A DNA stretch of 64,000 bases from an uncultured Dehalococcoidales bacterium (GCA_964586515.1 CAZPGJ010000001.1:394560-458559); one strand, 5' to 3'; positions 13,546-57,882 are shown, counted from the first letter of the stretch. The notes: generated by a model from the sequence alone, not told the origin. Numbers and translations: made by a program.

Positions 13546-13675
13546 TGTCATTGCGAGCGACCTGCTCGCCGTACGACTTCGGCAGGCGAGCCAGGGCTTG
13601 GCAGGCGGGAGCGTGGCAATCCCTTGCCCCACCACGAGATTGCTTCGGCTGATTAAAGTCAGCCGCGCAATGACA
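13546..13675 (+). repeat. MITE copy (TGTCATTGCGAG...CGCAATGACAG)
   Basis: Full copy flanked on both sides by GATTT/TTTGA-rich low-complexity tracts (13480-13540, 13690-13745). Confidence 0.7.
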
Positions 13676-14403: not shown

Positions 14404-15746
14404 TTTTTGATCAGCCTCTTGGCTCTTCTCAGCGCCGTTCCCACCTGTCGGGGGGAGGTTCCGCCGGCCACATTTCGAGCGGCTACCGATGATTCCAAAG
14501 TTATATTATAGACATCGCCGCTGAAAAGCGGGGAGAACTTGCGGTATTCCTTCATGGCAAGTTCCCGGAAGTTTTTGCCCTTGCTCAGGGCGTATTCGCT
14601 GAGTTTCGCTACTACGCCGTGGGCTTCCCGAAACGGCAGGCCTTTCTTCACCAGATAATCGGCCAGGTCGGTGGCCAGGATATAGTCTGTTTTCATCGCC
14701 TGAGCAATACGCTCGCTGTTTACCTTAAGCGTTTTTACCATCCCGGCGAATACTTCCAGGCTGGCCTGCAGCGTGTCCACGGTGTCAAACAGCCCCTCCT
14801 TGTCCTCCTGCATATCCCGGTTATAGGCTAAAGGCAGAGACTTCATAGTGGTCAAGATGCCCATGAGGTGGCCGTATACCCGCCCGGTCTTTCCCCTCGC
14901 CAGCTCGGCCACATCGGGATTTTTCTTCTGAGGCATGATGCTGCTGCCCGTAGTAAAGGCTTCGCCAATCTCTATGAAGCCAAACTCGCTCGATGACCAC
15001 AGGATGAGCTCCTCAGCCAGCCGGGAAAGATGCATCATGGTGATGGCCGCTGCCGCTTCGTATTCTACGACGAAGTCCCTGTCGGAAACGGCATCCAGGC
15101 TGTTGGTGCTCACCTTGCTGAAGCCTAGCTCCCGGGCCACGAATTCCCGGTCTACGGGGTAAGGAACGCCGGCCAGGGCGCCGCTGCCCAGGGGCAGGAC
15201 GTCCGTGCGCCCCAGGCAGTCCTGAAATCTTTCCTTGTCCCGCTGGAACATCTCGAAATAAGCCAGCAGGTGGTGAGCCAGGAGGACCGGCTGGGCTTGC
15301 TGCAGGTGGGTATAGCCGGGCATGACGACGGCCTTGTTTGCCTCGGCCAGCTCCACCAGCGCAGCTTGCAGAGCTTTTATCTTATCGATGGTCTTCAAGA
15401 TTTCCTCCTTGACGAACAGGCGCAGGTCCAGGGCTATCTGGTCGTTCCTGGAGCGGGCGGTATGGAGCTTGCCTGCCACGTCGCCTATCTTTTCAAACAA
15501 CCCCGCTTCGATGTTCATGTGTATATCCTCGAGCTCGGTCTTGAATTTAAATTTTCCTCGTTCGATTTCCCTTCGAATAGAGTTGAGCCCTTTGGTTATC
15601 GTCTCCACCTCGCTCTCGGCTATTATCCCCTGCTTCGCCAGCATCTGGGCGTGAACAAGGCTGCCCTCGATGTCCTGGCGGTATAGCCGCCGGTCAAAGG
15701 GAATAGATGCCACATATTCTTGCGCCAGTTTATTGGTTCCTTTCAT
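14400..15746 (-). CDS. argH: argininosuccinate lyase
   Basis: 448 aa; fumarate-lyase signature [12 protein letters not shown]; N-terminus atypical (lacks WGGRF). Confidence 0.9.
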
Positions 15747-15806: not shown

Positions 15807-16075
15807 TTGCCGGTATTTTTAACAGGAGCACTAACCTCCCGTGTCATTGCGAGCCCTTTTCTCTTGTCATTGCGAGCGACCTGCCCGCCTGCTCGCCGTA
15901 CGACTTCGGCAGGCGAGCCAAGGCTTGGCAGGCGGGAGCGTGGCAATCTCATTGCTTTCCTACCGAGATTGCTTCGGCTGACTAAAGTCAGCCTCGCAAA
16001 GACAGGGGGGAGGGATTGCGGAGCTTGTTCCGAAGCGTAAGCGAGGAATCTCGCTCCTCCCAGTGACAGAGGGAG
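15807..16075 (+). repeat. composite: TTTTTAACAGGAGCA element interrupted by a MITE copy (15842..16004, with duplicated 5' end)
   Basis: ggtatttttaacaggagca then gtcattgcgagccc..ttgtcattgcgagcgacc...cctcgcaaagacag then ggattgcggagcttgttccgaagcgtaagcgag, co-linear with the interrupted copy at 44118..44250. Confidence 0.6.
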
Positions 16076-16717: not shown

Positions 16718-16990
16718 TTGTTGAAATCGCAATCTGGGATGTCAAGGCTATATTTAGATATAGAAGTGCGTAAGCAATTGGGAATAGAGGAAGGTGACCT
16801 GGTAGAAATTGACGTTGAAGTCGAGAAAGCTGTGTTAATGCCCAAGAAACTGGTGGACAAGAGCCAGGCTTACTTCTGGACGAAGCGGTGGCAGGAGGGT
16901 GAGAGGGAGGCTGACGAAGACATTAAAGCCGGGCGGGTGAAGACCTTTAACTCGGTTGACGAGCTTATCAAAGACTTAGACAAGGAATAG
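16718..16990 (+). CDS. AbrB/SpoVT-family antitoxin-like protein (N-terminally diverged orphan)
   Basis: 90 aa; 80% identical over residues 17-90 to 45359..45646 ([15 protein letters not shown]...[14 protein letters not shown]); no toxin partner follows. Confidence 0.5.
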   Translation: MLKSQSGMSRLYLDIEVRKQLGIEEGDLVEIDVEVEKAVLMPKKLVDKSQAYFWTKRWQEGEREADEDIKAGRVKTFNSVDELIKDLDKE

Positions 16991-17002
16991 CAGTCTCTGT
17001 CT

Positions 17003-17075
17003 TGCCGGTATTTTTAACAGGAGCACCTGCTCGAAGCCTGAGGACATCGCGCCTGTCTGAACTTTCTGTCAAAAT
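17003..17075 (+). repeat. TTTTTAACAGGAGCA boundary element (family 2)
   Basis: ccggtatttttaacaggagcacctgctcgaagcctgaggacatcgcgcctgtctgaacttt; other copies 42232, 44118, 45203, 45694. Confidence 0.55.
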
Positions 17076-17170
17076 GTGTTCAAAACAGTTTTCTCCATCT
17101 CAGTCGTGTTTATTGACATTACGTTCCTTCTACCGCTACAATTACATCAAAAGCTAGAACATAGCGTAGT

Positions 17171-21300: not shown

Positions 21301-21365
21301 GACGCCATACCAATCAGGCCTGCTACAAATCAGGTCTTATGTCCCCACAATACAGGTAGGTATTT
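21301..21365 (+). repeat. cassette-boundary repeat, copy 3 (variant B)
   Basis: aattccggggacgccataccaatcaggcctgctacaaatcaggtcttatgtccccacaatac. Confidence 0.7.
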
Positions 21366-21437
21366 AAAACATCGAATGAAGCTACGTGTGCTTGAAGATT
21401 CGTTAATATAGGTGTACACTGAATAATCGAGTATAGA

Positions 21438-21908
21438 GTGGAGGTGGCTCTAATGAAGGCTTTAATAGTATATGACTCGGTTTATGGAAATACGGAGAAA
21501 ATCGCCAGGGCTATTGCTGAAGCTATTACCCCGTCCGGTGAAGTCAAGGTACTGCGGGCGGGCGAGGCGAATCCCTCGGAATTGGCATCTATTGACCTTC
21601 TCATTGTAGGTTCTCCGACCCATGGGGGCAGGCCGACGCCGGCGATTCAAGGCCTCCTCAACAAAGTCCCTGAGCGTTCTCTTCAAGGTATCAACGTAGC
21701 TGCGTTCGACACCAGAACCCCGACGAAACTCGTAGCGGTGTTTGGATATGCTGCTGGACGCCTCGCCCGCAATCTGAAAAGGAAAGGCGGTGCTCTCATA
21801 GCGTCCCCGGAAGGCTTCTTCGTTACAGGCACCAAAGGTCCGCTGAAAGAAGGAGAACTGGAGCGGGCTGCAGGTTGGGCTAAAGGAATTTTGGAGAGCA
21901 AGAAGTAA
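21438..21908 (+). CDS. flavodoxin-like fold protein (copy 1)
   Basis: MKALIVYDSVYGNTEKIA flavodoxin phosphate-binding loop; ~90% identical to 54900..55364 including ~80 nt upstream. Confidence 0.7.
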   Translation: MEVALMKALIVYDSVYGNTEKIARAIAEAITPSGEVKVLRAGEANPSELASIDLLIVGSPTHGGRPTPAIQGLLNKVPERSLQGINVAAFDTRTPTKLVAVFGYAAGRLARNLKRKGGALIASPEGFFVTGTKGPLKEGELERAAGWAKGILESKK

Positions 21909-21968
21909 ATTTGCAAGGCCCTTTCCCATTTCAACTACACGGTTATTCACTTTGGGACACGAGTAAGA

Positions 21969-24778: not shown

Positions 24779-25378
24779 ATGAATGAAAATTTGTTATGCA
24801 GTGGTCTCTTCGGCAAAACACGGCAGGCGGTCCTTGCGCTCCTCTATGGGCGAGCGGATAGCTCTTTTTATACCAAACAAATACTGGACGCCGTGAAAAT
24901 CGGACGGGGAACGGTGCAGCGAGAGCTGAAAAACCTGACGGACACGGGCATCATCACCCGTGAAGTTCAAGGGAGACAGGTATATTATCGAGCCAATGCC
25001 CGTTGCCCTATCTTCGATGAGCTCAAAAGCATCGTGAGGAAAACCTTCGGCATGGCTGATGTCATCAGACAGTCTCTGGCGGCTAATGCAGATAAAATAC
25101 GGGTAGCTTTTATCTTCGGCTCAGTAGCCAAGAGCACGGATGACCGAAGAAGTGACATTGACCTGATGGTGGTGGGCAAAATCTCTTTTGGAGACGTGGT
25201 TTCGCTTCTCACCCCGGCAGAACAAAAACTAGGGCGCGAGGTTAATCCTGTTGTCTACCCGATTGCCGAATTCAAGAAGAAAGTGAAAGAGGACCATCAT
25301 TTCGTCAAGACAGTGCTTGAGGATGAGAAGATATTTGTGATAGGCGATGAAGATGAGCTTAGAAAACTGGCTGAATGA
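24779..25378 (+). CDS. wHTH + minimal nucleotidyltransferase (MNT) antitoxin-like protein
   Basis: 199 aa; N-terminal winged helix, NTase motif GSVAKSTDDRRSDIDLMVV. Confidence 0.7.
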   Translation: MNENLLCSGLFGKTRQAVLALLYGRADSSFYTKQILDAVKIGRGTVQRELKNLTDTGIITREVQGRQVYYRANARCPIFDELKSIVRKTFGMADVIRQSLAANADKIRVAFIFGSVAKSTDDRRSDIDLMVVGKISFGDVVSLLTPAEQKLGREVNPVVYPIAEFKKKVKEDHHFVKTVLEDEKIFVIGDEDELRKLAE

Positions 25379-25799
25379 TAAACTGATTGTGAAACACCGC
25401 CCATCGGCAGCTGAAATTGCCGAACTGTTGCATATCTGCGACCGTGACCTGGAAAAAGCACAGATAATCGAACTCGGTCCAGACTGGCGATTGAGTATTG
25501 CGCATAATGCGGCTGTCCAAACTGCTAAGGCGGCACTGGCAGCAGTTGGCTATCGCGCTCGGAAAGAGGGGCAGCATTATCTTGTTCTGCAATCATTGGC
25601 TTTCACCATTAAAGCAAACCCCGCTATAATTAAGCAATTGGACAAGTTCCGTGAAAAACGTAATATCAGCGATTATGAAAGAGCTGGACTGGTCACTGAA
25701 CAAGAAGCTGAAGAAATGATAGTACTGGCGAAACAACTCCGCGATGATGTTGAGCAATGGCTCCGTGCTCATTATCCTAGTCTTGCCAGAGAGATTTAG
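25347..25799 (+). CDS. HEPN domain protein (toxin-like partner of MNT)
   Basis: 150 aa; overlaps MNT 3' end; Rx4HxY-like region RNISDYERAG. Confidence 0.6.
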   Translation: MKMSLENWLNDKLIVKHRPSAAEIAELLHICDRDLEKAQIIELGPDWRLSIAHNAAVQTAKAALAAVGYRARKEGQHYLVLQSLAFTIKANPAIIKQLDKFREKRNISDYERAGLVTEQEAEEMIVLAKQLRDDVEQWLRAHYPSLAREI

Positions 25800-42363: not shown

Positions 42364-43185
42364 ATGGCACAAACTATAAGAACTCTGGGCGATAAGGGCA
42401 GCAACCTCCTGACCGGATTATCACGCCAGGGGAAGAGACTTTTTACTTTCATGGATGCCACAGAAGTCTACGGTAAAAGCGATGGTGGACTTCATAAGCT
42501 TTTGCATACGCTGGTCAAAAGGCGGTGGCTTCAGCGTGTGGAAAAAGGCAAATACCTGATTCTCCCCTTTGAAGCTGGCCGCGAGCGTGAATGGACTGAA
42601 CACGAGTTCATTATTGCTTCCTATCTGATTAACCCCTACTACATAGGATTTCGAAGTGCATTGAACTACTACGGTTACACAGAGCAGGTCAGCCGGGCTG
42701 TCTTTATAGCATCGACACACCGCAAGATGAAGACGGAACTTGATATCTCAGGGGTAACATATCGATTCGTCCATATGACAGAGAGGAAATTCTTTGGAGA
42801 AACTAAGGTGATCTTGGACGGGTATGGCATAAAAATATCGGAACGTGAGAAGACGATTGTTGATTGCCTTGATAGATTGGAATACTGCGGTGGTATATCA
42901 GAAGTAGCCAAAGCCCTTTCATATGGCCGTGATGAATTCGATTTGGTGAAAATGGTTCATTATGCCGTGAAAAGCGGAAATAAAGCTGTAATCAAACGCC
43001 TGGGTTACCTCTTAGAGCTTCTAAATTTCGAGGCCGGTAATGCCATCAACATACTGCGCGGCAACCTTAGCAGCGGTTATTCCCCATTAGATACTTTGGG
43101 ACACCGGGAAGGCCGCCATATCCAGCGCTGGCGATTGCTAGTAAATGTACCGCAGAATGAAATCTCCCAGTGGCAGGAGCTCTGA
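42364..43185 (+). CDS. AbiEi-family antitoxin (type IV TA / abortive infection)
   Basis: 273 aa; N-terminal wHTH, AbiEi C-domain. Confidence 0.65.
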   Translation: MAQTIRTLGDKGSNLLTGLSRQGKRLFTFMDATEVYGKSDGGLHKLLHTLVKRRWLQRVEKGKYLILPFEAGREREWTEHEFIIASYLINPYYIGFRSALNYYGYTEQVSRAVFIASTHRKMKTELDISGVTYRFVHMTERKFFGETKVILDGYGIKISEREKTIVDCLDRLEYCGGISEVAKALSYGRDEFDLVKMVHYAVKSGNKAVIKRLGYLLELLNFEAGNAINILRGNLSSGYSPLDTLGHREGRHIQRWRLLVNVPQNEISQWQEL

Positions 43186-44012
43186 TGTTATCCAGAGCCG
43201 AACTTCAGAGACTAGCCAATCGGGAGAAGGTAGCTCTGGGCGTATTAGAAAAGGACTACGTGCTTACAGAGGTGCTGAAGGCGTTATTCCAGCTACCGGC
43301 ATTGCGCGAAAGCTTCGTATTCAAAGGTGGCACTGCTCTGCGCAAGGTTTATTTTCCGCGCTGGCGTTATTCAGAAGACCTGGATTTCACCGTCAAATTC
43401 GATATTCCCAAAGAAGAACTTGGACAGAACCTCGATGGCTTGTATCATCAAGTAGAACAAGCCACTCAAATTCGGCTCACTACTAGAATGCTTCACAAGA
43501 CAAATGGCTACGCCCGTATCAGGACTCAATTCTTAGGACCTTTGGCTCATCCGGCTATGATCTACATGGATTTGAGTTTCGATGAACCGTTATGCCTCGA
43601 ACCTCAGTCCCGAAAGGTATTGACTGCACCCTTCCCTGATGAGGAACGAACAGTTCAAGTGTATCCCCTGGAGGAATTAATGGCCGAGAAGATGCGCAGT
43701 TTGGTAGAACGGGGTAAATCAAGGGACTACTACGATGTGTGGAGGCTTCTAAAAGAACAACGCTCCCAGATGAACTTAGAGCTACTGGGAATGGTACTTG
43801 GGAAGAAACTCAGGCATAAGGGACTGAGACTCGGGACTACAGCAGATTTTCTCCCTGAGAATCCAGCCGGAATCAAAAGGTATTGGGAGAAAGACCTTAG
43901 TCAGCAGGTTGCTGCGCTACTACCTCTTGAGAATGTACTTAACGAGCTAAAGCACATGCTTGATAGCTATGTAGCTCCACATTTGACCTTGCAGTCTGGT
44001 GAGCCTCGATAA
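43170..44012 (+). CDS. AbiEii/AbiGii nucleotidyltransferase toxin (DUF1814)
   Basis: 280 aa; FKGGTALRKVYFPRWRYSEDLDF motif; overlaps abiEi stop. Confidence 0.7.
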   Translation: MAGALMLSRAELQRLANREKVALGVLEKDYVLTEVLKALFQLPALRESFVFKGGTALRKVYFPRWRYSEDLDFTVKFDIPKEELGQNLDGLYHQVEQATQIRLTTRMLHKTNGYARIRTQFLGPLAHPAMIYMDLSFDEPLCLEPQSRKVLTAPFPDEERTVQVYPLEELMAEKMRSLVERGKSRDYYDVWRLLKEQRSQMNLELLGMVLGKKLRHKGLRLGTTADFLPENPAGIKRYWEKDLSQQVAALLPLENVLNELKHMLDSYVAPHLTLQSGEPR

Positions 44013-44117: not shown

Positions 44118-44250
44118 GCCGGTATTTTTAACAGGAGCAGTAACCTCCCGCGTCATTGCGAGCCCCGACTTGTCGGGGCGTGGCAATCCCCAGGATTGCG
44201 GAGCTGTTTTTTGAAGCGTAAGCGAGCCCATCGCGCCTGCCTAAACCTTT
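44118..44250 (+). repeat. TTTTTAACAGG element interrupted by mini-MITE (44152..44191)
   Basis: ggtatttttaacaggagca|gtaacctcccgcgtcattgcgagccccgacttgtcggggcgtggcaatcccc|aggattgcggagctgttttttgaagcgtaagcgagcccatcgcgcctgcctaaacctttt. Confidence 0.55.
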
Positions 44251-45179: not shown

Positions 45180-45202
45180 GAAAATGCATCGCCCACTGCT
45201 TT

Positions 45203-45275
45203 GCCAGTATTTTTAACAGGAGCATCTGCTCGAAGCCTGCGGACATCGTGCCCGTCTAAACCTTTTGACGACTTG
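45203..45275 (+). repeat. TTTTTAACAGGAGCA boundary element
   Basis: ccagtatttttaacaggagcatctgctcgaagcctgcggacatcgtgcccgtctaaaccttttgacg. Confidence 0.55.
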
Positions 45276-45355
45276 TGTAATGTTAAGCTGATCTTGACAT
45301 CTCCGTCGTATTGCGTAATATTGGACGTCATGATGAAACACTGGAGCGCCCGTAG

Positions 45356-45646
<291 letters not shown>

Positions 45647-45693
45647 TCTCTGTCTTGTAGCCTTCTTAGCCATCGTTTTGATTGCATCGTTTT

Positions 45694-45770
45694 CCCGGTA
45701 TTTTTAACAGGAGCATCTGCTTGAAGCCTGAGGACGTCGCACCTGTCTAAACTTTTTGGCGGAATGTGCA
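45694..45770 (+). repeat. TTTTTAACAGGAGCA boundary element
   Basis: cccggtatttttaacaggagcatctgcttgaagcctgaggacgtcgcacctgtctaaactttttggcg. Confidence 0.55.
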
Positions 45771-45976: not shown

Positions 45977-46231
45977 ATGAAAGAGCAGAATAAGGACAGA
46001 AAAAGACTAAAATTAGTCCCATTTGGGGATGCATATATACAAAGAAGTAGGCGTCTCGCTATCCCTGAGATCTTGTTGCAAAACGTTGAGTTGCGGGAGG
46101 GAGATGCAGTCAAGTTATTTCTTGATGTTGGGGATATTACTGGTGAGAAGGCGATTGTGGTAATGAAATCAAAAAATCCTGACAAAATTAAGGCCAAAGG
46201 CCGCAGGCAAAAAAGAGGAGAGACTACTTGA
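45977..46231 (+). CDS. AbrB/SpoVT-like small DNA-binding protein, possible controller of downstream R-M gene
   Basis: 84 aa; RRLAIPEILLQNVELREGDAVKLFLDVGDITGEKAIVV resembles AbrB-N swapped hairpin; stop overlaps TTG start of 46228 gene; AT-rich. Confidence 0.4.
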   Translation: MKEQNKDRKRLKLVPFGDAYIQRSRRLAIPEILLQNVELREGDAVKLFLDVGDITGEKAIVVMKSKNPDKIKAKGRRQKRGETT

Positions 46232-48924
46232 TTTATCCTTTGGGTCTTTATTCAGGTGACGCCAGCAATAAGTTTTGTTCTCTCAAGAATCTTCGCAACG
46301 AGAGTGATGTAGAGCAGTTCTTCACTATCCGCTTGCTCAATCATCTGGGATATACTGACGATTTCATTGAAACAAAAACCTCACTAAAAGGTGAACTGTT
46401 AGGAAAGGGTACTAGACGTAGGACATATGTTCCTGATTATGTTTGCTATAAAGATAGGCAACATAAGATTCCTCTTCTGGTTGTGGATGCAAAGAGCCCT
46501 CTTGAAAGTGCTGAGGCAGGCGCAAGTGATGCACAAGAATATGCTGCAGTTTTACACCGACGTCTAGATGACCCAAAACCAGAAATCTATTGCATAGGCA
46601 CAAATGGTACTCGCACTATCGTAAAGCACTATGATAGAGAAAAACCAGAGTTTGACCTTACTTTTGAAGAGTTTGTTGATGGGAATCCTAAGTTCGCTGA
46701 CTTTATTTCCGTGCTTTCGAGAGCATCACTATCGGAAGTTAGTTTCCCGGCAGGTGCAATATTTGAGTTCAGGAAACCGGGCCTTGGCGAAGTAAGAGGC
46801 ATCTTCCAAGCCTGCCACAATATTATATGGCGTAAGGAAAAAATGTCCCCCCAAGCCGCCTTCTATGAATTCTGCAAAATTATGTTTATTAAACTTCGAG
46901 AGGATAAGAAGCTAAGAGGAGACCCAGAACTAAGTCAGTTGATTCGTAACGGACGTCCATTGCCGACGGATAGAGTATTGTTTAACCTTCATATGATAGT
47001 ACAAAGTGAGGATGCAGACCCTAATCCGGTTAACTCTATGCTTTTTAAGCGTCTCAGGGAAGAATTAGAACATGAAATACGAATTGGACGTAAGAAGCGT
47101 ATTTTTGAGCCTGATGAAGAGATAAGACTGAAAGCTACTACAGTTAAAGAAGTCGTGAGGCACCTTGAACACCACGACCTTTATGGTATAGATGAAGATT
47201 TAAATGGTCGATTATTTGAAACTTTCTTAAGTTCCACCATGAGAGGGCCTGAACTAGGTCAATTTTTTACACCGCGTTCTGTAGTTGAATTTATGAGCGA
47301 CCTTGTTGATTTACAAGTGTCACTTCAATATGTCGATTCGGTAATTGACCTATGCTGTGGCACTGGAGGCTTCCTTATAGAGGCGATGGCAAAAATGGCA
47401 GAAAAGGTAAACAGACCCCCGCTGGCAACTGTGCTTGGAAGTGGTGAAAAGGAAAAGATACTACAAAAGATAAGAGATGAGCAGCTACTAGGAATAGATG
47501 CAGGAAAAGACCCCCCTATAGCTAGGATTGCTAGAATCAACATGTATTTACATGGGGATGGAGGTAGCCACATCTACTTTGCAGACGCTCTAGATAAGGC
47601 GACTGCAATAGAGGAAGGTGTGGAACCTGAATTAAGAACAGAACGAGAGGAACTTCGTCAAATTCTTGTTACTGGCGGACATAAGTTTGATGTCGCCCTA
47701 ACTAATCCTCCATTTGCTATGCGTTATAAACGTTCTGAGGCTGATGAACGAAGCATACTTGAACAATACAAACTAGGGGAATATATTGCTAAGAAGGGTT
47801 CTCGAAAACAAAGAGCTTCTTTAAAGTCAAATATTATGTTCTTGGAACGGTATTGTGACTTGTTAAAGCCTGGAGGCAGACTTTGTACTATAATTGATGA
47901 AAGTGTGCTAAATACGGATACAGATAAAGAAGCCAGATACTTTCTGCTGCATAACTTCCTAGTGAGAGCCGTGATTAGTTTGCCCCGATGGGCATTTTTT
48001 GAAGCAGGCTCAAATGTAAAGACCTCTATTCTATTCTTGACCAAAAAACATGAAACGTCTGAAGAGCAACCTCACACGTTCTATGCACGCTGTGAGAACA
48101 TAGGTTATGACTATCAGAAACCAGACCCTACAAAAAATGAACTACCTATGATTCTAACCGCATACAGAGCATATCAGAAAGACGGGAAAATACTTGAGAA
48201 GCAAAAAACTCATTGGAGCGACAAGACTCGGCTCTTCTCCACGAAGTTAACATCAGACATAAGACGAATCGACTTTGAATACCTTGACCCTCGGCATGAA
48301 GTAATGCTAGAGAAATTGCAGGAAATAGCCACCACCCGAAACTATGAGATAGCTAACCTTGATGATTTATGTGAGGTGTTCCGGGGTAAGACTGCAGAAC
48401 AATATGTTACTGATGGCATCCCTATAATTAAACTACGAAACGTAACGAACGAGGGTATAAATTGGGAAGATATAGATTTTGTGCTTAGAGACTTTTTTGA
48501 TGATAATCCTGATTGCCATCTAAAGCCTTTAGATATTTTGCTTACCTCTACAGGAGTGGGAACTATCGGTAGGGTCGATATGTTGGATAGGGACATACCC
48601 TGTATGACAGATGGGCATGTTACTGTGTTAAGGGTAAAGGAACAAACTAAGGTTCTGCCCCGATATATCCTTTATTACCTCCGGTCAACTTTAGGACAAA
48701 TGCAAATGGAGAAATATACTGTAGGCAGTACTGGCCAAACTGAGCTCAATAGAGATGATGTTAAGGCAATAAAGGTTGTTTATCCTGAGTCAGCCGATGA
48801 CCAATCAAAATTAGCTGATGCTGCACACAGTATAGAGGCTGTCGCAGTCAGAGCAAGAAATGAATATAGGAATAACTTAGCAATGGCTAGACTGAAATTT
48901 GCTGAATCGTTGGGTTTGTCATAA
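46228..48924 (+). CDS. single-chain Type IIG/IIL-like restriction-modification enzyme (nuclease + gamma-class N6-MTase + TRD)
   Basis: 898 aa; N-terminal PD-(D/E)xK (VPDYVCY...VVDAKS), MTase motif I LCCGTGGFL and motif IV LTNPPF, C-terminal HsdS-like TRD; AGAGGAG SD before TTG start. Confidence 0.65.
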   Translation: MIYPLGLYSGDASNKFCSLKNLRNESDVEQFFTIRLLNHLGYTDDFIETKTSLKGELLGKGTRRRTYVPDYVCYKDRQHKIPLLVVDAKSPLESAEAGASDAQEYAAVLHRRLDDPKPEIYCIGTNGTRTIVKHYDREKPEFDLTFEEFVDGNPKFADFISVLSRASLSEVSFPAGAIFEFRKPGLGEVRGIFQACHNIIWRKEKMSPQAAFYEFCKIMFIKLREDKKLRGDPELSQLIRNGRPLPTDRVLFNLHMIVQSEDADPNPVNSMLFKRLREELEHEIRIGRKKRIFEPDEEIRLKATTVKEVVRHLEHHDLYGIDEDLNGRLFETFLSSTMRGPELGQFFTPRSVVEFMSDLVDLQVSLQYVDSVIDLCCGTGGFLIEAMAKMAEKVNRPPLATVLGSGEKEKILQKIRDEQLLGIDAGKDPPIARIARINMYLHGDGGSHIYFADALDKATAIEEGVEPELRTEREELRQILVTGGHKFDVALTNPPFAMRYKRSEADERSILEQYKLGEYIAKKGSRKQRASLKSNIMFLERYCDLLKPGGRLCTIIDESVLNTDTDKEARYFLLHNFLVRAVISLPRWAFFEAGSNVKTSILFLTKKHETSEEQPHTFYARCENIGYDYQKPDPTKNELPMILTAYRAYQKDGKILEKQKTHWSDKTRLFSTKLTSDIRRIDFEYLDPRHEVMLEKLQEIATTRNYEIANLDDLCEVFRGKTAEQYVTDGIPIIKLRNVTNEGINWEDIDFVLRDFFDDNPDCHLKPLDILLTSTGVGTIGRVDMLDRDIPCMTDGHVTVLRVKEQTKVLPRYILYYLRSTLGQMQMEKYTVGSTGQTELNRDDVKAIKVVYPESADDQSKLADAAHSIEAVAVRARNEYRNNLAMARLKFAESLGLS

Positions 48925-48978: not shown

Positions 48979-49049
48979 AATTCCGGAATTCCAGGGGCAC
49001 CATACCAATCAGGCCTGCTACAAATCAGGTATTATGCCCCCAGAATACC
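48979..49049 (+). repeat. cassette-boundary repeat, copy 17 (variant B, duplicated GAATTCC 5' arm)
   Basis: gaattccggaattccaggggcaccataccaatcaggcctgctacaaatcaggtattatgcccccagaatacc. Confidence 0.7.
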
Positions 49050-49193
49050 ACGAACTCATCTTCGGTCGAGGGTGGTGATGGCACCCTTGACTTGACTTTG
49101 GTCTGAGCCTTTGATACCTTAGACTTTGTCATGGTTGCTAGGGGGTGCACTACTAGACTCACTTAAATCTCGTACATACCCTCAGGGCGAATC

Positions 49194-50015
49194 TTGCAAG
49201 TTCTGGGGGTGACGGAAGGAAATATGACTCGGCAATTGCATATCACCATCGAAGGAAGACTAGGCCAAATTCCCCTTAATACACTAGCGACTATGGCACG
49301 AAACTCCTGTGATATTTTGGAGGAGTTGGATAATGTGACCTCTGCGAAGCCCGGTGGGACTATGGAATGGTTTGTCTCGGGCATCTCCACTGAGGCAAGT
49401 TTGACGGTCACCATCGAAGCAAAGCCAAAACTAAAGGATGTAGATTATACAGGGAGGGTAGCAGAATTATTTGTTGATGGATTGGCGCATATTGAGAAGG
49501 AGCATACCACTCCGCCGTATTTTTCTGACTATGGTCTCCGTAAAACTCATAACATTGCCAAAACCCTTCGTAAGAATGGAGCAGAAGCTATCAGAGTGGA
49601 AGACATTGAACGCAAAGCCAGTGGCCTTATAAAGGCAGATGTGGCGGACCCTCTGAAAAAACTCATTAGTATTCGGTATCAAGAGATAGGTTCAGTAGAG
49701 GGTACACTTGAAATGATTTCTATTCACGGCTATCCACGTACAACTGTTTATCATTCTATTACACATCGGTCTGTTAGCTGCAAATTTGCCCCCAGATTGT
49801 TAGAGATAGTTAAAGAAGGGCTGGGAAATCGTGTGATTGTACACGGCATAGTTTATTTCAACTATGTGCATGAACCGATAAGAGTGGATGCCGAGAGGAT
49901 AGAAATAATGCCTCAAGAGGAGGAACTTCCTACGGCAAAAGACTTACGTGGTATGGTTCCTGATTTCACGGGGGATATGAAGACTGAAGACTATATTCGG
50001 AGTCTTCGTGAATGA
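49194..50015 (+). CDS. hypothetical protein (no recognisable domain), upstream partner of PIN gene
   Basis: 273 aa (probable start MTRQLHITIEG at 49224); stop overlaps start of PIN gene (ATGA). Confidence 0.45.
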   Translation: MQVLGVTEGNMTRQLHITIEGRLGQIPLNTLATMARNSCDILEELDNVTSAKPGGTMEWFVSGISTEASLTVTIEAKPKLKDVDYTGRVAELFVDGLAHIEKEHTTPPYFSDYGLRKTHNIAKTLRKNGAEAIRVEDIERKASGLIKADVADPLKKLISIRYQEIGSVEGTLEMISIHGYPRTTVYHSITHRSVSCKFAPRLLEIVKEGLGNRVIVHGIVYFNYVHEPIRVDAERIEIMPQEEELPTAKDLRGMVPDFTGDMKTEDYIRSLRE

Positions 50016-50494
50016 CTAACACTATTTATAAACAACCGTATTTGGAGAGTAGCGTTTTTATCGCCCTCATTAAAGGTGAGGTCATAGACGGGGTAGATAG
50101 AGCCGATATTGCTCAACACATTCTTGACGATGCTGCAAGAGGAAGGTGGCCTATTTTCACATCCACATTTACCTTTGCAGAAGTAATCAAAGATCGCAAA
50201 AGACCCTTGTTAACACTGGAGGAAGAAAGGAGAATTGGTGATTATTTCAAACATAAATACATTAAGCCAGTGCTATTAGATAGGGAAGTTGGAGAATCAG
50301 CGAGACGATTAGCTAGAATTTATACTCTACGCCCCGCTGATGCTGTTCACTTGGCAAGTGCTATCCAAGCAAAAGCAGATGAATTGTTGACTTGGGATAG
50401 TGGTAATTTCCCAATTGGTCAAACTATAGAGGGAGTCACAATTAAATTACCATATTGGTTTGGTCAAACTAGGATACCATTGCAACCAAGCTAA
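50012..50494 (+). CDS. PIN-domain nuclease
   Basis: 160 aa; acidic residues in PIN positions: YLESSVFIA, TSTFTFAEV, PADAVHLASA, LLTWDSG. Confidence 0.6.
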   Translation: MTNTIYKQPYLESSVFIALIKGEVIDGVDRADIAQHILDDAARGRWPIFTSTFTFAEVIKDRKRPLLTLEEERRIGDYFKHKYIKPVLLDREVGESARRLARIYTLRPADAVHLASAIQAKADELLTWDSGNFPIGQTIEGVTIKLPYWFGQTRIPLQPS

Positions 50495-50568
50495 TCAAAA
50501 GAACCCCCAATGATAGAATTAGGAAGAGAATAATGTCACTCGCCCTAGCTTCATGTATAGCCCTTTTG

Positions 50569-50632
50569 TAATTCCCGGGACACCATACCAATCAGGCCTA
50601 CTACAAATTAAGTATTATTTTCCCCAAAATAC
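50569..50632 (+). repeat. cassette-boundary repeat, copy 18 (variant B)
   Basis: aattcccgggacaccataccaatcaggcctactacaaattaagtattattttccccaaaatac. Confidence 0.65.
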
Positions 50633-50680
50633 ACGTGAATGACACGCCATTCGCTTTAGCATTAGGTTCAGCGGGTGAAT

Positions 50681-51355
50681 TTAAGCATTCAAGAGGCTAT
50701 TACCGGTGAGCAACAGCACAGCGTTGTCGATTAGCTTTGGTACGGTTGTATTCCAACCATCATCGAGGTATTTCTCCCACATATCTCCCGGACTTTCCAT
50801 CACTTCTAGGGCAAGATGCATAATTTCCATGTACTTTACGCCCGATTCTGCTTCGTACCCATAGAAATATTTGAGTGTATTCTTCGAGTCCATAGGAATA
50901 CACAATTTAGGAAACAAAAAGTGTAGTAGTTTGGAATTAGACACCAGTCTTCCGCCTGTCTTCATCACGTGTAGATTCTCGTAAACGTCGGCTATGCAAT
51001 CAAGTTTCTGTTCGATGCTCCCGTGTTGCCTTTCTACTGCTTCGAGGTTAGACAACTGCGATATACAGACGAAAATACTCTGTTTGAAATCATCGAAGTA
51101 CTTAAGTCTGGCTCCCCGGCTGTTCATGTCCCAGGCCACAAGAGTAGCGTAGACTATCTCCAAATTGTGGTCGTCAGAAATAAAAGATGTGACGGTCCCT
51201 GCGCCAAATCTCAGTACGAGTGTTCGCTTATAGAAGTAAAGGTCTGGGCCAAAACGGCCGTCACGTCCGATTCGGTATAGCCGATTTATATCAGATATTC
51301 TATTCTCTATCGTTGTCTTGATGTCATTCATCTTCTGAGTTCTGTTTTTTATCAT
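50681..51355 (-). CDS. hypothetical protein
   Basis: 224 aa; clean ORF bounded by two repeat copies; no motif recognised. Confidence 0.4.
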   Translation of the reverse strand: MIKNRTQKMNDIKTTIENRISDINRLYRIGRDGRFGPDLYFYKRTLVLRFGAGTVTSFISDDHNLEIVYATLVAWDMNSRGARLKYFDDFKQSIFVCISQLSNLEAVERQHGSIEQKLDCIADVYENLHVMKTGGRLVSNSKLLHFLFPKLCIPMDSKNTLKYFYGYEAESGVKYMEIMHLALEVMESPGDMWEKYLDDGWNTTVPKLIDNAVLLLTGNSLLNA

Positions 51356-51938: not shown

Positions 51939-52388
51939 TCACTTCTGGGTGAACTCCGGATGGTTCCTTTTCAACCATTCCAGGACCGTAGTGCGAAGCT
52001 TCTTTGCCAGAGCAAGCATCTTCTCAACTTCTTGTTCAGAAACCATGCCCACTCTCTCATAATCAGCGATATTGCGTTTCCTGCGAAAGGTATTAAGCTG
52101 GTCAATGGTCCTGGCATCAAGCTGCATGGTGAAAGCTAGCGACTGGATAGTCCAGTAGTGGTGGCCTTCTTGTGCTGCCCTGTAGCCACTGGCAGCCAGC
52201 GCTACCGTCGCTGCCAGCAAGGCAGCACTGTAAGCGGTGGCGAATCGCCTGTCCGCGCTCAATTCATGTAACTGGGCATCCGCCAGGTCACGGTCAGCCG
52301 CCTTCAGTAGCTCGGCAATGTCGCTACTGCTTGTTTTATGGGCTCTTAACCGCCCGCTTTCCAACCAGCTTTGTAAGCTCGTATTCAT
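51939..52388 (-). CDS. HEPN domain protein (second MNT-HEPN pair)
   Basis: 149 aa; paralogue of 25347..25799 (NAAVQTAKAAL / SAALLAATVAL; RNISDYER / RNIADYER). Confidence 0.6.
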   Translation of the reverse strand: MNTSLQSWLESGRLRAHKTSSSDIAELLKAADRDLADAQLHELSADRRFATAYSAALLAATVALAASGYRAAQEGHHYWTIQSLAFTMQLDARTIDQLNTFRRKRNIADYERVGMVSEQEVEKMLALAKKLRTTVLEWLKRNHPEFTQK

Positions 52389-52953
52389 TGCCTATGAGAA
52401 AGATTTTGTCGCCCTCAAGCACTGTATTGAGGAAATGGTGAGCGTCCTTTATTTTCTGTTTGAATTCAGTGATAGGATATACTACCGGGTTGACTTCGCG
52501 CCCCAGTTTTTGTTCCGCCGGGTTGAGAAGCGAAACCACGTCTTCAAAGGAGATTCTCCCAACTATCATCACGTCAATATCGCTTGTTCTCCTTTCATCG
52601 CCGCTGACGATTGAGCCGAATATGAAAGCAACCTTTATCTGCCCGATACAAGGCGCCAGTGCTGAGCGCAGGACGTCTGCCACACCCACAGTTTTGACAA
52701 TTATTCCATGCAGCTCATTAAAAAGAGGGCTCTGCCGGTTTGCCTGATAATATTTCTGTTTTCCCTCCGTAGTCGAAACAAGAATACCGGTCTCCTCCAG
52801 ATGTGCCAGCTCACGGCTCACATTTGTAGAATCTTCCTCCACTAAGGCGGTAAGTTGGCGGACAAAATAGCGCTGATCTGGATGTGTGAATAACCATCCC
52901 AGCACCTTTGCCCTGAGCTTTGACCCTACAAGTGTTCCTAATATTCCGTTCAT
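52336..52953 (-). CDS. wHTH + minimal nucleotidyltransferase (second copy)
   Basis: 205 aa; GSIVSGDERRTSDIDVMIV; paralogue of 24779..25378. Confidence 0.7.
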   Translation of the reverse strand: MNGILGTLVGSKLRAKVLGWLFTHPDQRYFVRQLTALVEEDSTNVSRELAHLEETGILVSTTEGKQKYYQANRQSPLFNELHGIIVKTVGVADVLRSALAPCIGQIKVAFIFGSIVSGDERRTSDIDVMIVGRISFEDVVSLLNPAEQKLGREVNPVVYPITEFKQKIKDAHHFLNTVLEGDKIFLIGNEYELTKLVGKRAVKSP

Positions 52954-54752: not shown

Positions 54753-54817
54753 GAATTCCAGGGACACCTCCTTCACCTTGTGAAGGACAAGTCAGGCATT
54801 ATGTCCTCAGAATACAG
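54753..54817 (+). repeat. cassette-boundary repeat, copy 21 (variant A)
   Basis: ggaattccagggacacctccttcaccttgtgaaggacaagtcaggcattatgtcctcagaatacagg. Confidence 0.7.
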
Positions 54818-54899
54818 GTGGGTATTTACAACATCGAATGAGGTTACGTGTGCTTGAAGATTCGTTAATACAGGCGTACACTGGATAATCGAGTATAGA

Positions 54900-55364
54900 G
54901 TGGAGGTGTCTCTAATGAAGGCTTTAATAGTATATGACTCAGTTTATGGAAATACGGAGAAAATCGCCAGGGCTATTGCTGAAGCTATTACCCCGTCCGG
55001 TGAGGTCAAGGTACTGCAGGCAGGCGAGGCGAATCCCTCGGAACTGGCATCCAATGACCTTCTCATTTTAGGTTCTCCGACCCATGGGGGCAGGCCGACG
55101 CCGGCGATTCAAGACCTCCTTACCAAAGTCCCCAAGCTTCAAGGTATCAACGTAGCTGCATTCGACACCAGAACCCAGACGAAACTCGTCGGGGTGTTTG
55201 GATATGCTGCTGGACGCATCGCCCGTAATCTGAAAGGAAAGGGCGGTACTCTCATAGCGTCTCCGGTGGGTTTCTTTGTTACAGGTAGCAAAGGTCCGCT
55301 GAAAGAAGGCGAACTAGAGCGGGCTGCAGGTTGGGCCAAGGGAATTTTAGAGAGCAAGAAGTAA
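54900..55364 (+). CDS. flavodoxin-like fold protein (copy 2)
   Basis: 154 aa, ~90% identical to 21438..21908; differs by 3-aa indel (ERS). Confidence 0.7.
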   Translation: MEVSLMKALIVYDSVYGNTEKIARAIAEAITPSGEVKVLQAGEANPSELASNDLLILGSPTHGGRPTPAIQDLLTKVPKLQGINVAAFDTRTQTKLVGVFGYAAGRIARNLKGKGGTLIASPVGFFVTGSKGPLKEGELERAAGWAKGILESKK

Positions 55365-55404
55365 TTTTGTAATGCCCTTCCTCATTTCAACTATACAATT
55401 ACTG

Positions 55405-55467
55405 AATTCCAGGAACACCGTCCTTCACAAGGTGAAGGACAAGTCAGGTATTATGTCCCCAGAATAC
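55405..55467 (+). repeat. cassette-boundary repeat, copy 22 (inverted-loop hairpin)
   Basis: gaattccaggaacaccgtccttcacaaggtgaaggacaagtcaggtattatgtccccagaatac. Confidence 0.7.
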
Positions 55468-56581: not shown

Positions 56582-57790
56582 TTATCGTTTTTCGGGTGGT
56601 TCGGGCTGCACCCTGGCCTGGGTCCTCGCGGGTAAGCCCCAGATATGGATGAAGCCGGGGGAGGCACTCTGGTCGAAGGCATCGCCCTTATCGTAAGTAG
56701 CCAGGCTGTAGTCGTAAAGAGAGTAGGGCGACTTTCTACCCACTATCTGACAGTTACCTTTGAAGAGCTTTACCCTTATGGTGCCGGTGACGTACCTTTG
56801 TGTGCTTTTCACATAGGCGGCTAAGTCCCGGCGCATGCCTGTGAACCACAGCCCATTGTAGATGAGGTCGGCATACTCCGCGGCGACCCCGGCCTTGAAG
56901 CGGAGCTGCTCCTTGGTCAGCACCAGGCCTTCCAGGGCCTGATGGGCCTTCAGCAGGACCACGGCAGCCGGCGCCTCATAAATCTCCCTCGATTTTATGC
57001 CCACCAGCCTATTTTCCACGTGGTCAATCCGGCCTACGCCATGTTTCCCAGCCAGGCTATGGACCTTCTGGACAAGGGCAACAGGCCCTAGCTTTCGTCC
57101 ATCCAGGCTTACCGGTATCCCCTTCTCAAAGCCAATCTCCAGATAAGCAGGCCGGGCCGGTGTTTTTTCGGGCGACTTTGTCCACAGGAAGACATCCTCG
57201 GGTGGTTCGTTCCAGGTGTCTTCCAGCACGCCACATTCAATGCTCCGGCCCCACAGGTTCTCGTCAATGGAATAGGGGTTGGCTTTGGTGATGGGGACAG
57301 GAATCTTGTGGACCCGGGCATATTCAATCGTTTGCTCGCGGGTCATCTTCCATTCCCGGGCCGGGGCTATTACCTTTAGTTCGGGGGCGAGAGCGGCCAC
57401 GCTGACATCAATCCTGACCTGGTCATTGCCCTTGCCGGTGCAGCCGTGAGCGACCGCTTTCGCCCTTTCTTTCCTGGCTGCTTCCACCAGGAGTCGGGCG
57501 ATAAGAGGACGCCCCAGGGCTGTGGCTAAAGGATACTGCCCTTCATAAACGACATCGGCCTGGAGGGCGGGGAAAACATACGACTTAATAAAGGTCTCTT
57601 TGGCGTCGACTACCAGCGCTTTGACGGCTCCGACTTTGAGTGCTTTTTGTCTGATAGCCTCGAGGTCGGGGACGTTGCCTATATCCACGGTGAGGGTGAT
57701 GACCTTCGAGTTATATTTTTCCTCGAGCCATTTTATGGCCACGGATGTATCCAGGCCGCCGCTGTAGGCCAATACTACCTTTCCTGACAT
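56582..57790 (-). CDS. argG: argininosuccinate synthase
   Basis: PP-loop AYSGGLDTS; start set at MSGKVVLAYSGG. Confidence 0.9.
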   Translation of the reverse strand: MSGKVVLAYSGGLDTSVAIKWLEEKYNSKVITLTVDIGNVPDLEAIRQKALKVGAVKALVVDAKETFIKSYVFPALQADVVYEGQYPLATALGRPLIARLLVEAARKERAKAVAHGCTGKGNDQVRIDVSVAALAPELKVIAPAREWKMTREQTIEYARVHKIPVPITKANPYSIDENLWGRSIECGVLEDTWNEPPEDVFLWTKSPEKTPARPAYLEIGFEKGIPVSLDGRKLGPVALVQKVHSLAGKHGVGRIDHVENRLVGIKSREIYEAPAAVVLLKAHQALEGLVLTKEQLRFKAGVAAEYADLIYNGLWFTGMRRDLAAYVKSTQRYVTGTIRVKLFKGNCQIVGRKSPYSLYDYSLATYDKGDAFDQSASPGFIHIWGLPARTQARVQPEPPEKR

Positions 57791-57882
57791 TTCATAACCT
57801 CCTGCTTCATTAAATCCCAAATCATAATATCTAAATCCTAAACAAATTCAAATTTCAAATGTCCTAAATTCAAAACCTTCAA

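What the first reader, a model, noticed from the sequence alone, without database searches (positions are those of the whole stretch)
49194..50494. Operon of a 273-aa orphan protein translationally coupled to a PIN-domain nuclease
The hypothetical gene stops inside the PIN gene's start (ATGA overlap), and the pair is bounded by cassette repeats 17 and 18. Canonical VapB partners of PIN/VapC toxins are ~70-90 aa DNA-binding proteins. A 273-aa partner with no recognisable HTH/RHH/AbrB motif implies either an unusually large antitoxin or sensor, or a two-component defence module (sensor + PIN effector) of undescribed type. It sits in a defence-rich neighbourhood next to a Type IIG R-M enzyme.
Basis: inference. 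Interest (0 to 1): 0.55.

Follow-up and report, generated by a model that had tools for sequence, protein, structure and literature searches.

The report
VapC nuclease with large OB-fold partner
A PIN (VapC-type) RNA-cutting enzyme gene is always paired with, and probably held in check by, a 263-residue three-part protein from a large, unnamed family, and here the pair sits on a small mobile cassette; this looks like a new variant of a toxin-antitoxin module.

Summary
The two genes exist as described. The upstream gene most likely starts at ATG 49224, giving 263 aa rather than 273, and overlaps the PIN gene (50012-50494) by ATGA. The upstream protein is not an orphan. It has no Pfam, NCBIfam, PADLOC, PHROGs or PDB sequence match, but a profile finds about 3,900 protein clusters across many bacterial phyla, an archaeon and phages. 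In about 90% of assessable loci a PIN gene follows immediately, usually overlapping, and the neighbours are otherwise unrelated. The two proteins co-diverge (r=0.83). A confident AlphaFold model shows a new alpha/beta N-terminal region, a nucleic-acid-type OB fold, and a flexible C-terminal tail with a conserved LP..G..PDFTGD..EEYIRSIR motif. The PIN model resembles VapC toxins and keeps its acidic site (E12, E57, D110, D129). The 1.6-kb unit, together with its upstream 72-nt repeat, occurs at 95-96% identity in other genomic contexts, so it is a mobile cassette. Best reading: a VapBC-like toxin-antitoxin module with a new, large antitoxin/regulator whose tail plugs the PIN active site. A defence-sensor role is possible but untested. 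Toxicity, neutralisation and binding are all inferred.

The parts
48986..49058 (+). Upstream copy of the ~72-nt imperfect-palindrome repeat. It forms the left edge of the mobile unit.
   Evidence: Repeat families D1/D4. nhmmer hit at 48980-49053, E=2.9e-18. Homology to five other contigs starts exactly at 48986. It folds as a long imperfect hairpin, z=-2.1 on the + strand and -3.2 on the - strand.
49065..49091 (.). 10-bp inverted repeat GTCGAGGGTG-N7-CACCCTTGAC overlapping TTGACT-like hexamers. It could be an operator, promoter or terminator. Its function is not shown.
   Evidence: and the sequence. The promoter scan found no significant sigma-70 site upstream on the + strand. The repeat is not conserved in the 81%-identical loci L045/L046, whose homology starts at 49172.
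49214..49219 (+). Shine-Dalgarno-like GGAAGG, 4 nt before ATG 49224.
   Evidence: Read from the sequence.
49224..50015 (+). Gene for the 263-aa partner protein (proposed antitoxin/regulator). The coordinates include the stop codon.
   Evidence: The ORF appears. A 100%-identical 263-aa database protein, P0001, exists and homologues start at the same Met. The AlphaFold model has pLDDT 89.1 and pTM 0.79.
49224..49673 (+). N-terminal alpha/beta region (aa 1-150; order b-a-b-b-a, then the TPPYFSD loop, then a-b-b-a) with no match to a solved structure.
   Evidence: Secondary structure. Conserved W49 and P97-P98-Y99-S101. In the listed top 50 PDB Foldseek hits, the credible matches (~85-150 aligned columns) fit only the OB-fold part; the few long alignments have rmsd above 15 A. 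Three phage proteins match nearly the full length, E 6e-10 to 4e-8.
49677..49907 (+). OB-fold domain (aa 152-228; five strands with a helix between strands 3 and 4) of the nucleic-acid-binding type. It carries the family signature GSVEGxLExISIH.
   Evidence: Foldseek probability 1.0 to OBody/AspRS, the LysRS anticodon-binding domain, the RecG wedge, SSB, PriB and Stn1, with E about 1e-3. One family member gives a weak Pfam tRNA_anti-codon hit. Invariant G160, C186, G208, N213 and E217.
49908..50012 (+). Flexible C-terminal tail (aa 229-263), ELPTAKDLRGMVPDFTGDMKTEDYIRSLRE. It has near-invariant L235, P236, G243, P246, T249, G250, Y257, R259 and R262. This is the proposed PIN-binding and inhibiting segment.
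   Evidence: pLDDT of 61-77 here against about 90 elsewhere, with a terminal helix at 254-262. Conservation. The inhibitory role is an inference by analogy with VapB2 Arg66/Arg74 and Tyr76/Phe77 contacting the VapC2 acidic site (PMC3326315).
49999..50002 (+). GGAG ribosome-binding site for the PIN gene, inside the 3' end of the upstream gene and 9 nt before ATG 50012.
   Evidence: Read from the sequence. It fits translational coupling together with the ATGA overlap.
50012..50494 (+). Gene for the 160-aa PIN-domain (VapC-like) nuclease. Acidic residues are E12 (50045-50047), E57 (50180-50182), D110 (50339-50341) and D129 (50396-50398).
   Evidence: Pfam PIN, E=2.9e-10. Alignments. Model pLDDT 86.9. 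The best PDB fold matches are VapC toxins of VapBC complexes: 7by2, 5x3t, 4xgr, 5ecw, 3zvk and FitB 2bsq.
50566..50643 (+). Downstream repeat copy. It probably belongs to the next unit in the array.
   Evidence: In L055 and L056, homology to the window stops at 50568, just before this repeat. In L047 and L053 it runs through the repeat.

Best explanation
This is a mobile, VapBC-like type II toxin-antitoxin module with an unconventional first gene. The downstream gene encodes a VapC-type PIN endoribonuclease, the toxin/effector. The upstream gene encodes a 263-aa, three-part protein that travels with the PIN gene, is translated just before it (ATGA overlap), and most likely binds it. The protein's flexible, conserved C-terminal tail (LP...G..PDFTGD..Y.R..R) would lie in the acidic active-site groove of the PIN protein and block it, as VapB/FitA tails do. 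The folded N-terminal region and the nucleic-acid-type OB fold replace the usual small DNA-binding domain. They probably provide oligomerisation plus nucleic-acid binding, either for autoregulation or for sensing a trigger that releases the nuclease.

Shown: gene anatomy, family size, strict gene pairing, co-divergence, predicted folds, conserved PIN acidic residues, cassette mobility.

Inferred: physical interaction, inhibition by the tail, PIN toxicity, and what the OB fold binds.
For: Pairing. A PIN gene lies directly downstream on the same strand, usually with a 4-11 nt overlap. This holds in 7 of 7 metagenome loci, 34 of 37 species-representative genome loci (of the other four, two are contig ends, one has an IS inserted in the PIN gene and one has a truncated partner gene with no PIN), and 61 of 68 assessable metagenome loci. 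It also holds in 2 of 3 viral contigs and in a cultured Pseudomonas phage. The reverse test gave 3 of 3: PIN-seeded look-ups all have the 270-aa family member upstream. Neighbouring genes are otherwise unrelated.

Co-divergence. Pairwise distances of partner and PIN correlate at r=0.83, with 0 of 2000 Mantel permutations reaching that value.

PIN. The fold resembles VapC toxins. E57 and D110 are kept in 34 of 34, position 12 is D or E in 34 of 34, and D129 is kept in 30 of 34. NCBI names one relative a VapC family toxin.

Partner. The model is confident, with a low-confidence tail that is nonetheless among the most conserved segments and carries Tyr and two Arg. In VapBC2, C-terminal Arg66/Arg74 and aromatic residues of VapB2 block the VapC2 acidic site (PMC3326315).

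Selfish-element behaviour. The 1.58-1.65 kb unit occurs at 95-96% identity in other contexts, with homology ending at the repeats. An IS1595 transposase lies directly upstream in three unrelated loci. One copy sits in a prophage immunity region. Degenerate copies exist. The phyletic spread is patchy.
Against: No experiment or complex model supports binding, neutralisation or toxicity. The partner is well folded and conserved over its whole length, unlike typical labile antitoxins, which suggests a function beyond neutralisation. No conserved operator or promoter was found upstream. A subgroup lacks the terminal Y.R..R helix yet still pairs with PIN, so that helix cannot be the only contact. 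One locus pairs the protein with an AAA+ ATPase instead of PIN. In this copy and its close relatives the first catalytic acid is Glu rather than the usual Asp, and the effect on activity is unknown.
Confidence: 0.6

Rival explanations
1. The pair is an anti-phage abortive-infection/defence module. The large protein is a sensor: its OB fold and N-terminal region detect a phage nucleic acid or protein and release or activate the PIN nuclease. This overlaps the TA reading mechanistically and differs in biological role.
For: In the window the cassette lies among R-M, AbiE and MNT genes. Other copies lie beside a type I HsdR gene, beside HNH and Abi_alpha genes, or beside a phage integrase. One copy lies next to the cI-like repressor of a temperate Pseudomonas phage, a typical site for prophage defence genes. 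The partner has folded domains suited to sensing. A phage contig carries an OB+tail-only version that could act as an anti-defence decoy.
Against: There is no PADLOC match for either protein or for diverse relatives. Most other loci have ordinary metabolic neighbours. No phage data exist.
Confidence: 0.25
2. The pair is a non-toxic two-subunit RNase. The OB-fold protein is a substrate-recognition or adaptor subunit that guides the PIN nuclease to a specific RNA (for example a tRNA), with a housekeeping or regulatory role.
For: The OB fold resembles anticodon-binding and ssDNA/RNA-binding OB domains. Eukaryotic Rrp44/Dis3 combines a PIN domain with OB-type domains (general knowledge). The partner is conserved and fully folded.
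Against: The distribution is patchy, spanning many phyla plus phages. The cassette is mobile. Copies are associated with IS elements and pseudogenes exist. The PIN protein is closest in fold to TA toxins.
Confidence: 0.08
3. The polarity is reversed: the large protein is the toxic or effector component and the PIN protein is its regulator or immunity partner.
For: The large protein has highly conserved polar residues (S157, E159, E163, H168, H177, C186, N213, E217), which could form a binding or catalytic site. Toxin-first TA operons are known (general knowledge, e.g. higBA).
Against: No enzymatic fold was detected. The PIN catalytic residues are under conservation. PIN-disrupted copies retain an intact large gene, although the sampling was seeded on the large gene and is therefore biased.
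Confidence: 0.04

Closest known systems
VapBC / FitAB type II toxin-antitoxin systems (PIN toxin with a small DNA-binding antitoxin)
   Same: The gene order is regulator then PIN, with overlapping reading frames. The PIN fold and acidic site resemble VapC. The upstream protein ends in a flexible tail with conserved Arg and aromatic residues, as VapB2 and FitA tails do (PMC3326315). The module is mobile and patchily distributed.
   Different: The upstream protein is 263 aa rather than about 70-90 aa. It has no RHH, AbrB, Phd or HTH domain, which are the partner classes listed for PIN toxins in PMC5499597. Instead it has a novel alpha/beta region plus an OB fold. In this clade the first catalytic acid is Glu, not Asp.
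gp054/gp055 of Pseudomonas phage vB_PaeS_AV001 (PQ349086.1), both uncharacterised
   Same: gp054 (278 aa) aligns to the family profile over 249 columns (hhalign probability 99.1%, E 5e-19) and has the same tail, LPSLAEMKGSAPDATGDQSAEDYVRELRSG. gp055 overlaps it and is a PIN domain, Pfam E 2e-8.
   Different: Identity is only about 22-28%. The pair sits in a prophage immunity region next to an S24 repressor. gp055 is annotated as 'repressor protein', which the Pfam result contradicts.
Toxin-antitoxin cassettes in chromosomal integron arrays (for example the Vibrio superintegron)
   Same: A TA-like pair forms one unit in a long array of same-orientation repeats, and the unit recurs in other genomic contexts with homology ending at the repeats.
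   Different: The repeats lack the AAC...GTT attC core. No integrase was found among the window ORFs scanned. The array also holds housekeeping-type genes such as MutS2. The repeat stays attached to the 5' side of this unit.
Multidomain or 'hyperpromiscuous' antitoxins (PanA/DUF4065 and other NetFlax nodes; PMC10440598)
   Same: A larger, folded antitoxin-type protein paired with a standard toxin fold, found by conserved two-gene architecture.
   Different: There is no sequence or fold relation to Panacea. This partner is almost monogamous with PIN, with one AAA+ ATPase exception. OB fold is not mentioned in that paper.

Membership tests
VapBC type II toxin-antitoxin | The toxin is a PIN-domain protein with the four conserved acidic residues. 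| tested here: met
   Pfam PIN, E 2.9e-10. E12, E57, D110 and D129 are present. Across 34 partners, position 12 is D or E in all, E57 and D110 are invariant, and D129 is kept in 30 of 34. The model's best fold matches are VapC toxins. Caveat: Glu replaces the canonical first Asp.
VapBC type II toxin-antitoxin | The antitoxin is a small (~70-90 aa) protein with an N-terminal RHH, AbrB, Phd/YefM or HTH DNA-binding domain. | tested here: not met
   The protein is 263 aa. It has no Pfam or NCBIfam domain. The confident model shows an alpha/beta region plus an OB fold, and the listed top 50 PDB fold matches include no RHH, AbrB, Phd or HTH protein. Partner classes are taken from PMC5499597.
VapBC type II toxin-antitoxin | Bicistronic operon with the antitoxin gene first and the reading frames overlapping or abutting. 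| tested here: met
   ATGA overlap in the window. Overlaps of 4-11 nt in relatives.
VapBC type II toxin-antitoxin | The antitoxin C-terminus binds the toxin and occludes its active site. | not testable with these tools
Only indirect support exists: a conserved flexible tail with Y257, R259 and R262 and co-divergence at r=0.83.
VapBC type II toxin-antitoxin | The toxin inhibits growth, the cognate antitoxin neutralises it, and the antitoxin is labile. | not testable with these tools
   This requires expression experiments.
Integron gene cassette | The cassette ends in an attC site with R''/R' boxes (RYYYAAC ... GTTRRRY) that fold into a hairpin with extrahelical bases. | tested here: not met
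   Alignment of the 22 repeat copies shows no conserved AAC/GTT core. Some copies fold as imperfect hairpins, others do not; for example 50564-50645 has z=+0.3. No attC covariance model was available.
Integron gene cassette | An integron integrase (IntI) lies next to the array. | tested here: inconclusive
   None of the 32 window ORFs scanned with Pfam is a tyrosine recombinase, but not every ORF was scanned. The array is flanked by argH and argG inside the window. An integrase elsewhere in the genome cannot be excluded.
Known anti-phage defence systems (PADLOC-DB v2) | A significant match of a component to a defence-system model. | tested here: not met
   No hit at E<=1 for the window proteins. 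Only chance-level hits (E 0.0085 and 0.025) for diverse relatives.

The most novel reading that the evidence does not exclude
The 263-aa family is a new class of nucleic-acid-sensing regulator. Its OB fold and novel N-terminal region would detect a phage or stress-derived RNA or ssDNA (or a tRNA state) and, through its C-terminal tail, gate a VapC nuclease. That would make it a widespread, unannotated abortive-infection system (about 3,900 clusters, from Chloroflexota to Pseudomonas phages). Phages would counter it with OB+tail-only decoys such as the one in L051.
Probability: 0.2. Interest if true: 0.7.

Novelty: new variant of a known kind. Interest (0 to 1): 0.5.

Why it matters
PIN/VapC toxins are the largest toxin family in prokaryotes. 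Their catalogued partners are small RHH, AbrB, Phd or HTH proteins. This work defines a large partner family (thousands of clusters, many phyla, phages) that no domain database covers. It has a confident three-part architecture and near-obligate pairing with PIN. If the tail-plug model holds, the family adds a new antitoxin architecture and shows an OB fold taking the place of the DNA-binding domain. If the OB fold senses nucleic acid, it would be a new trigger mechanism for a TA/defence nuclease. A homologous pair in a cultured Pseudomonas aeruginosa phage gives a direct experimental handle. The cassette behaviour also documents gene-unit exchange at non-attC repeats in an uncultured lineage.

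Tried and rejected
1. Sequence annotation of the 263-aa protein found nothing significant. I searched Pfam (single protein and all 52 alignment members), NCBIfam, PADLOC, PHROGs, PDB sequences and the plasmid collection.

The tail-in-active-site model therefore stays an inference.

3. I considered modelling the N-terminal region alone for a fold search and dropped the idea. Foldseek aligns locally, and the full-length query already gave no credible PDB hit to that region (the long alignments had rmsd above 15 A).

4. DUF6575 lead. One phage structural match is named DUF6575, a domain seen in a defence system in PMC9519451. No family member matches that Pfam model, so I did not use it.

5. Integron reading of the repeats. 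There is no AAC/GTT core, no integrase in the window, no Rfam hit, and housekeeping genes sit in the array. I left this as 'cassette-like, mechanism unknown'.

6. The promoter/operator search upstream was not significant.

7. The argument that decayed copies lose PIN but keep the partner is rejected as evidence, because all those loci were found by searching for the partner.

8. The idea that E12 marks an inactive PIN is rejected. Glu at that position is the norm in this clade and recurs in other clades with the rest of the site intact.

Full report
OBSERVATION

The region contains two same-strand ORFs, 49194-50015 and 50012-50494. The sequence ...CGT GAA TGA / ATG ACT... shows the ATGA stop/start overlap, and a GGAG lies 9 nt before the second ATG. 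The second ORF is a PIN domain (Pfam PF01850, E 2.9e-10, 41 bits against a cutoff of 23.6).

The first ORF can be read as 273 aa from TTG 49194. However, the identical database protein is 263 aa, nearly all homologues start at the Met encoded by ATG 49224, and GGAAGG precedes that ATG by 4 nt. I therefore take 49224-50015 as the gene.

Copies of a ~72-nt repeat flank the pair at 48986-49058 and 50566-50643. The upstream neighbour (46228-48924, 898 aa) carries N6_Mtase, Eco57I and Methylase_S domains, as expected for a type IIG enzyme.

THE UPSTREAM PROTEIN IS NOT AN ORPHAN

It has no hit in Pfam, NCBIfam, PADLOC, PHROGs or PDB sequences, and none of 52 family members has a credible Pfam hit. 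Even so, a word-indexed search found 83 homologues of ~262 aa with no Pfam annotation; the few that carry a name are almost all called 'hypothetical protein'. A profile search of 1.84 billion representatives found 3,947 clusters at E<=1e-3, 2,653 at <=1e-10 and 600 at <=1e-30.

Species-representative genomes carrying it include Dehalococcoidia and other Chloroflexota, Acidobacteriota (Bryobacterales), Nitrospirota, Thermodesulfobacteriota, Actinomycetota, Spirochaetia, Bacillota, Alphaproteobacteria and a Bathyarchaeia archaeon.

THE PAIRING WITH PIN IS NEAR-OBLIGATE AND RECIPROCAL

- Gene calls around four divergent members (33-100% identity) show a PIN gene overlapping the 3' end in otherwise unrelated neighbourhoods.
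- With my own ORF caller and HMMs, 34 of 37 genome loci have a PIN ORF directly downstream. Of the four other loci, two are contig ends, one has an IS inserted in the PIN gene (L029), and one has a truncated partner gene (L030).
- In 80 metagenome loci, 61 of 68 assessable cases are paired. The remainder are degenerate copies (L071 has an internal stop and a lost PIN start), copies without PIN, or one case followed by an AAA+ ATPase (L104/L106).
- Three look-ups seeded on PIN homologues all found a 270-aa family member upstream, with HMM E values of 1e-67 to 1e-104.
- Pairwise distances of the two proteins across 34 pairs correlate at r=0.83, and 0 of 2000 Mantel permutations reach that value. 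The genes are therefore inherited and diverge as a unit.

ANATOMY OF THE PARTNER

AlphaFold2 with a 52-sequence alignment gave mean pLDDT 89.1 and pTM 0.79. The model has three parts.

- Residues 1-150 form an alpha/beta region (b-a-b-b-a, then a-b-b-a) containing the near-invariant TPPYFSD loop.
- Residues 152-228 form a five-stranded barrel with a helix between strands 3 and 4.
- Residues 229-263 have lower confidence (61-77) and end in a short helix.

Foldseek against the PDB gave credible matches only to the barrel. The targets were nucleic-acid-binding OB folds (AspRS-derived OBody, the LysRS anticodon-binding domain, the RecG wedge, SSB, PriB, Stn1), with probability 1.0 but E only about 1e-3. 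No credible hit covered the N-terminal region, and no RHH, AbrB, Phd or HTH protein appears among the top 50 hits listed. Against viral models, three uncharacterised phage proteins matched nearly the full length, E 6e-10 to 4e-8.

The tail is among the most conserved parts of the protein despite its flexibility. The motif (E/D)LP.....G is common to all members. Most also have PDFTGD.STEEYIRSIR, with Y257, R259 and R262 near-invariant. A distant subgroup lacks this terminal helix.

THE PIN PROTEIN

A 38-sequence alignment shows invariant E57, D110 and D129 and near-invariant E12. Across all 34 partners, position 12 is D or E, E57 and D110 are invariant, and D129 is replaced by N in three.

Glu instead of the canonical first Asp is therefore a clade feature, not a sign of decay. 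Its effect on activity is unknown.

The model (pLDDT 86.9) is closest to PcrIIC1 and then to a run of VapC toxins from solved VapBC/FitAB complexes. NCBI names one relative 'type II toxin-antitoxin system VapC family toxin'.

MOBILITY

The window holds 22 copies of the repeat, all on the + strand, between 19545 and 56526. This stretch lies between argH and argG and mixes housekeeping-type genes with R-M, AbiE and MNT genes.

A contig from another sample (L047) shares 95% identity with the window over exactly 48986-50635 and nothing beyond. Three further contigs share 96% from 48986 to 50568 or 50618. Short assemblies of the pair begin and end inside the repeat.

The unit 'repeat + two genes' is therefore a cassette that occupies different sites in related genomes. 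An 81%-identical copy in another organism has no repeats.

The repeats lack an attC AAC/GTT core, and no integrase was found among the ORFs I scanned. I call the unit cassette-like rather than an integron cassette.

Elsewhere the pair sits directly after an IS1595-family transposase in three unrelated loci. In the cultured temperate phage vB_PaeS_AV001 it sits next to the S24 cI-type repressor. There gp054 matches the family profile (hhalign 99.1%, E 5e-19), and gp055, annotated as a repressor, is in fact a PIN domain.

MECHANISM

The most economical reading is a VapBC-like toxin-antitoxin module. Several features match type II TA loci:
- regulator-first gene order;
- translational coupling;
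- a VapC-like nuclease with a conserved active site;
- selfish-element behaviour;
- decaying copies.

In solved VapBC2, the last 20 residues of VapB2 fill the groove that joins the VapC2 active sites. Arg66 and Arg74 contact the catalytic Glu43 and Asp99, and Tyr and Phe anchor the tail (PMC3326315). The tail here, which is flexible and conserved and carries Tyr and two Arg, is a plausible equivalent.

The rest of the partner differs. In place of a small DNA-binding domain there are 228 residues of well-folded, conserved protein, including an OB fold of the nucleic-acid-binding class. This argues for an added function. The candidates are autoregulation through nucleic-acid binding, sensing of a trigger, or guiding the nuclease to its RNA. 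I could not discriminate among these. No conserved operator was found.

COMPARISON WITH KNOWN SYSTEMS

The 2017 PIN superfamily survey lists RHH, AbrB, Phd/YefM, HTH and UPF0175 partners, plus some GNAT-PUA and HTH-DUF955 operons, and nothing like this protein. The NetFlax TA network paper does not mention an OB-fold partner. Full-text searches for PIN with OB-fold and antitoxin found no description.

The module meets the VapBC criteria for toxin type and operon layout. It fails the criterion of a small DNA-binding antitoxin. I therefore class it as a new variant of a known kind, not a plain member.

VERDICT

A defence role is possible (contexts) but not shown, and most other loci are not in defence islands. 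Interest is moderate. The family is large, unannotated and structurally distinct, and an experimental handle exists, but the class (a PIN toxin with a new partner) is familiar.

Noticed in passing
window 19545-56526: There are 22 copies of a ~72-nt imperfect-palindrome repeat, all on the + strand, between argH (14400-15746) and argG (56582-57820). The core comes in two variants: a TCCTTCAC-N4-GTGAAGGA hairpin and CCAATCAGGCCTGCTAC. The repeats have no attC AAC/GTT core and no Rfam match, and no integrase was found among the scanned ORFs. Units between the repeats are exchanged between related genomes. The recombination mechanism is unknown.
   Followed up: partly
window 42364-44012: An AbiEi antitoxin-like gene (273 aa) overlaps an AbiEii nucleotidyltransferase toxin gene (280 aa). 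This is a second TA/abortive-infection pair in the array.
   Followed up: partly
window 51939-52953 (- strand) and 24779-25799 (+ strand): Two nucleotidyltransferase (MNT/Polbeta) genes are each paired with an overlapping ~150-aa ORF. The 51939-52388 ORF has no Pfam hit and the 25347-25799 ORF was not scanned. These are possible MNT-HEPN-type TA pairs.
   Followed up: no
window 50681-51355 (- strand): The next unit of the array holds a 224-aa ORF with no Pfam match. It was not examined further.
   Followed up: no
window 21325-21952 and 54787-55408: A ~600-nt segment containing a flavodoxin gene is duplicated at 88-93% identity, 33 kb apart. Each copy adjoins repeat copies.
   Followed up: no
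window 10414-10498, 12547-12582, 13537-13621, 15864-15948, 44157-44192; also 16766-17078 vs 45198-45768: A second, unrelated family of GC-rich repeats (GTCATTGCGAGCGA...GCGTGGCAATC) is present, along with repeated ~240-300-nt segments, both outside and inside the array.
   Followed up: no
L051 4944-5848 (IMG/VR contig IMGVR_UViG_3300050821_002347): A viral contig encodes a 149-aa OB-fold+tail-only version of the partner. The next ORF begins with a PIN N-terminus (MTLYRRPYLESS) and then continues as an unrelated sequence that aligns to no other part of PIN. It is either a decayed copy or a phage-borne antitoxin-only decoy. L030 (Spirochaetia) has a similar truncation.
   Followed up: partly
L104 1612-3731 and L106 (same sequence): A full-length family member with an intact tail is followed, after a 270-nt gap, by a 341-aa AAA+ ATPase instead of a PIN gene. 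This may be a partner swap.
   Followed up: no
L029 4753-7520: An IS element with a 454-aa transposase is inserted in the PIN gene of a Dehalococcoidia copy. The partner gene is intact.
   Followed up: partly
L002/L003 4098-4877, L004/L005 3707-4720, L050 4068-4949: An IS1595-family (Zn-ribbon + DDE) transposase gene lies directly upstream of the pair in three unrelated loci. The pair may travel as IS cargo.
   Followed up: no
L052 3889-4422 (PQ349086.1, Pseudomonas phage vB_PaeS_AV001 gp055): This gene is annotated 'repressor protein' but is a PIN-domain protein (Pfam E 2e-8). It overlaps gp054, a homologue of the 263-aa family.
   Followed up: yes
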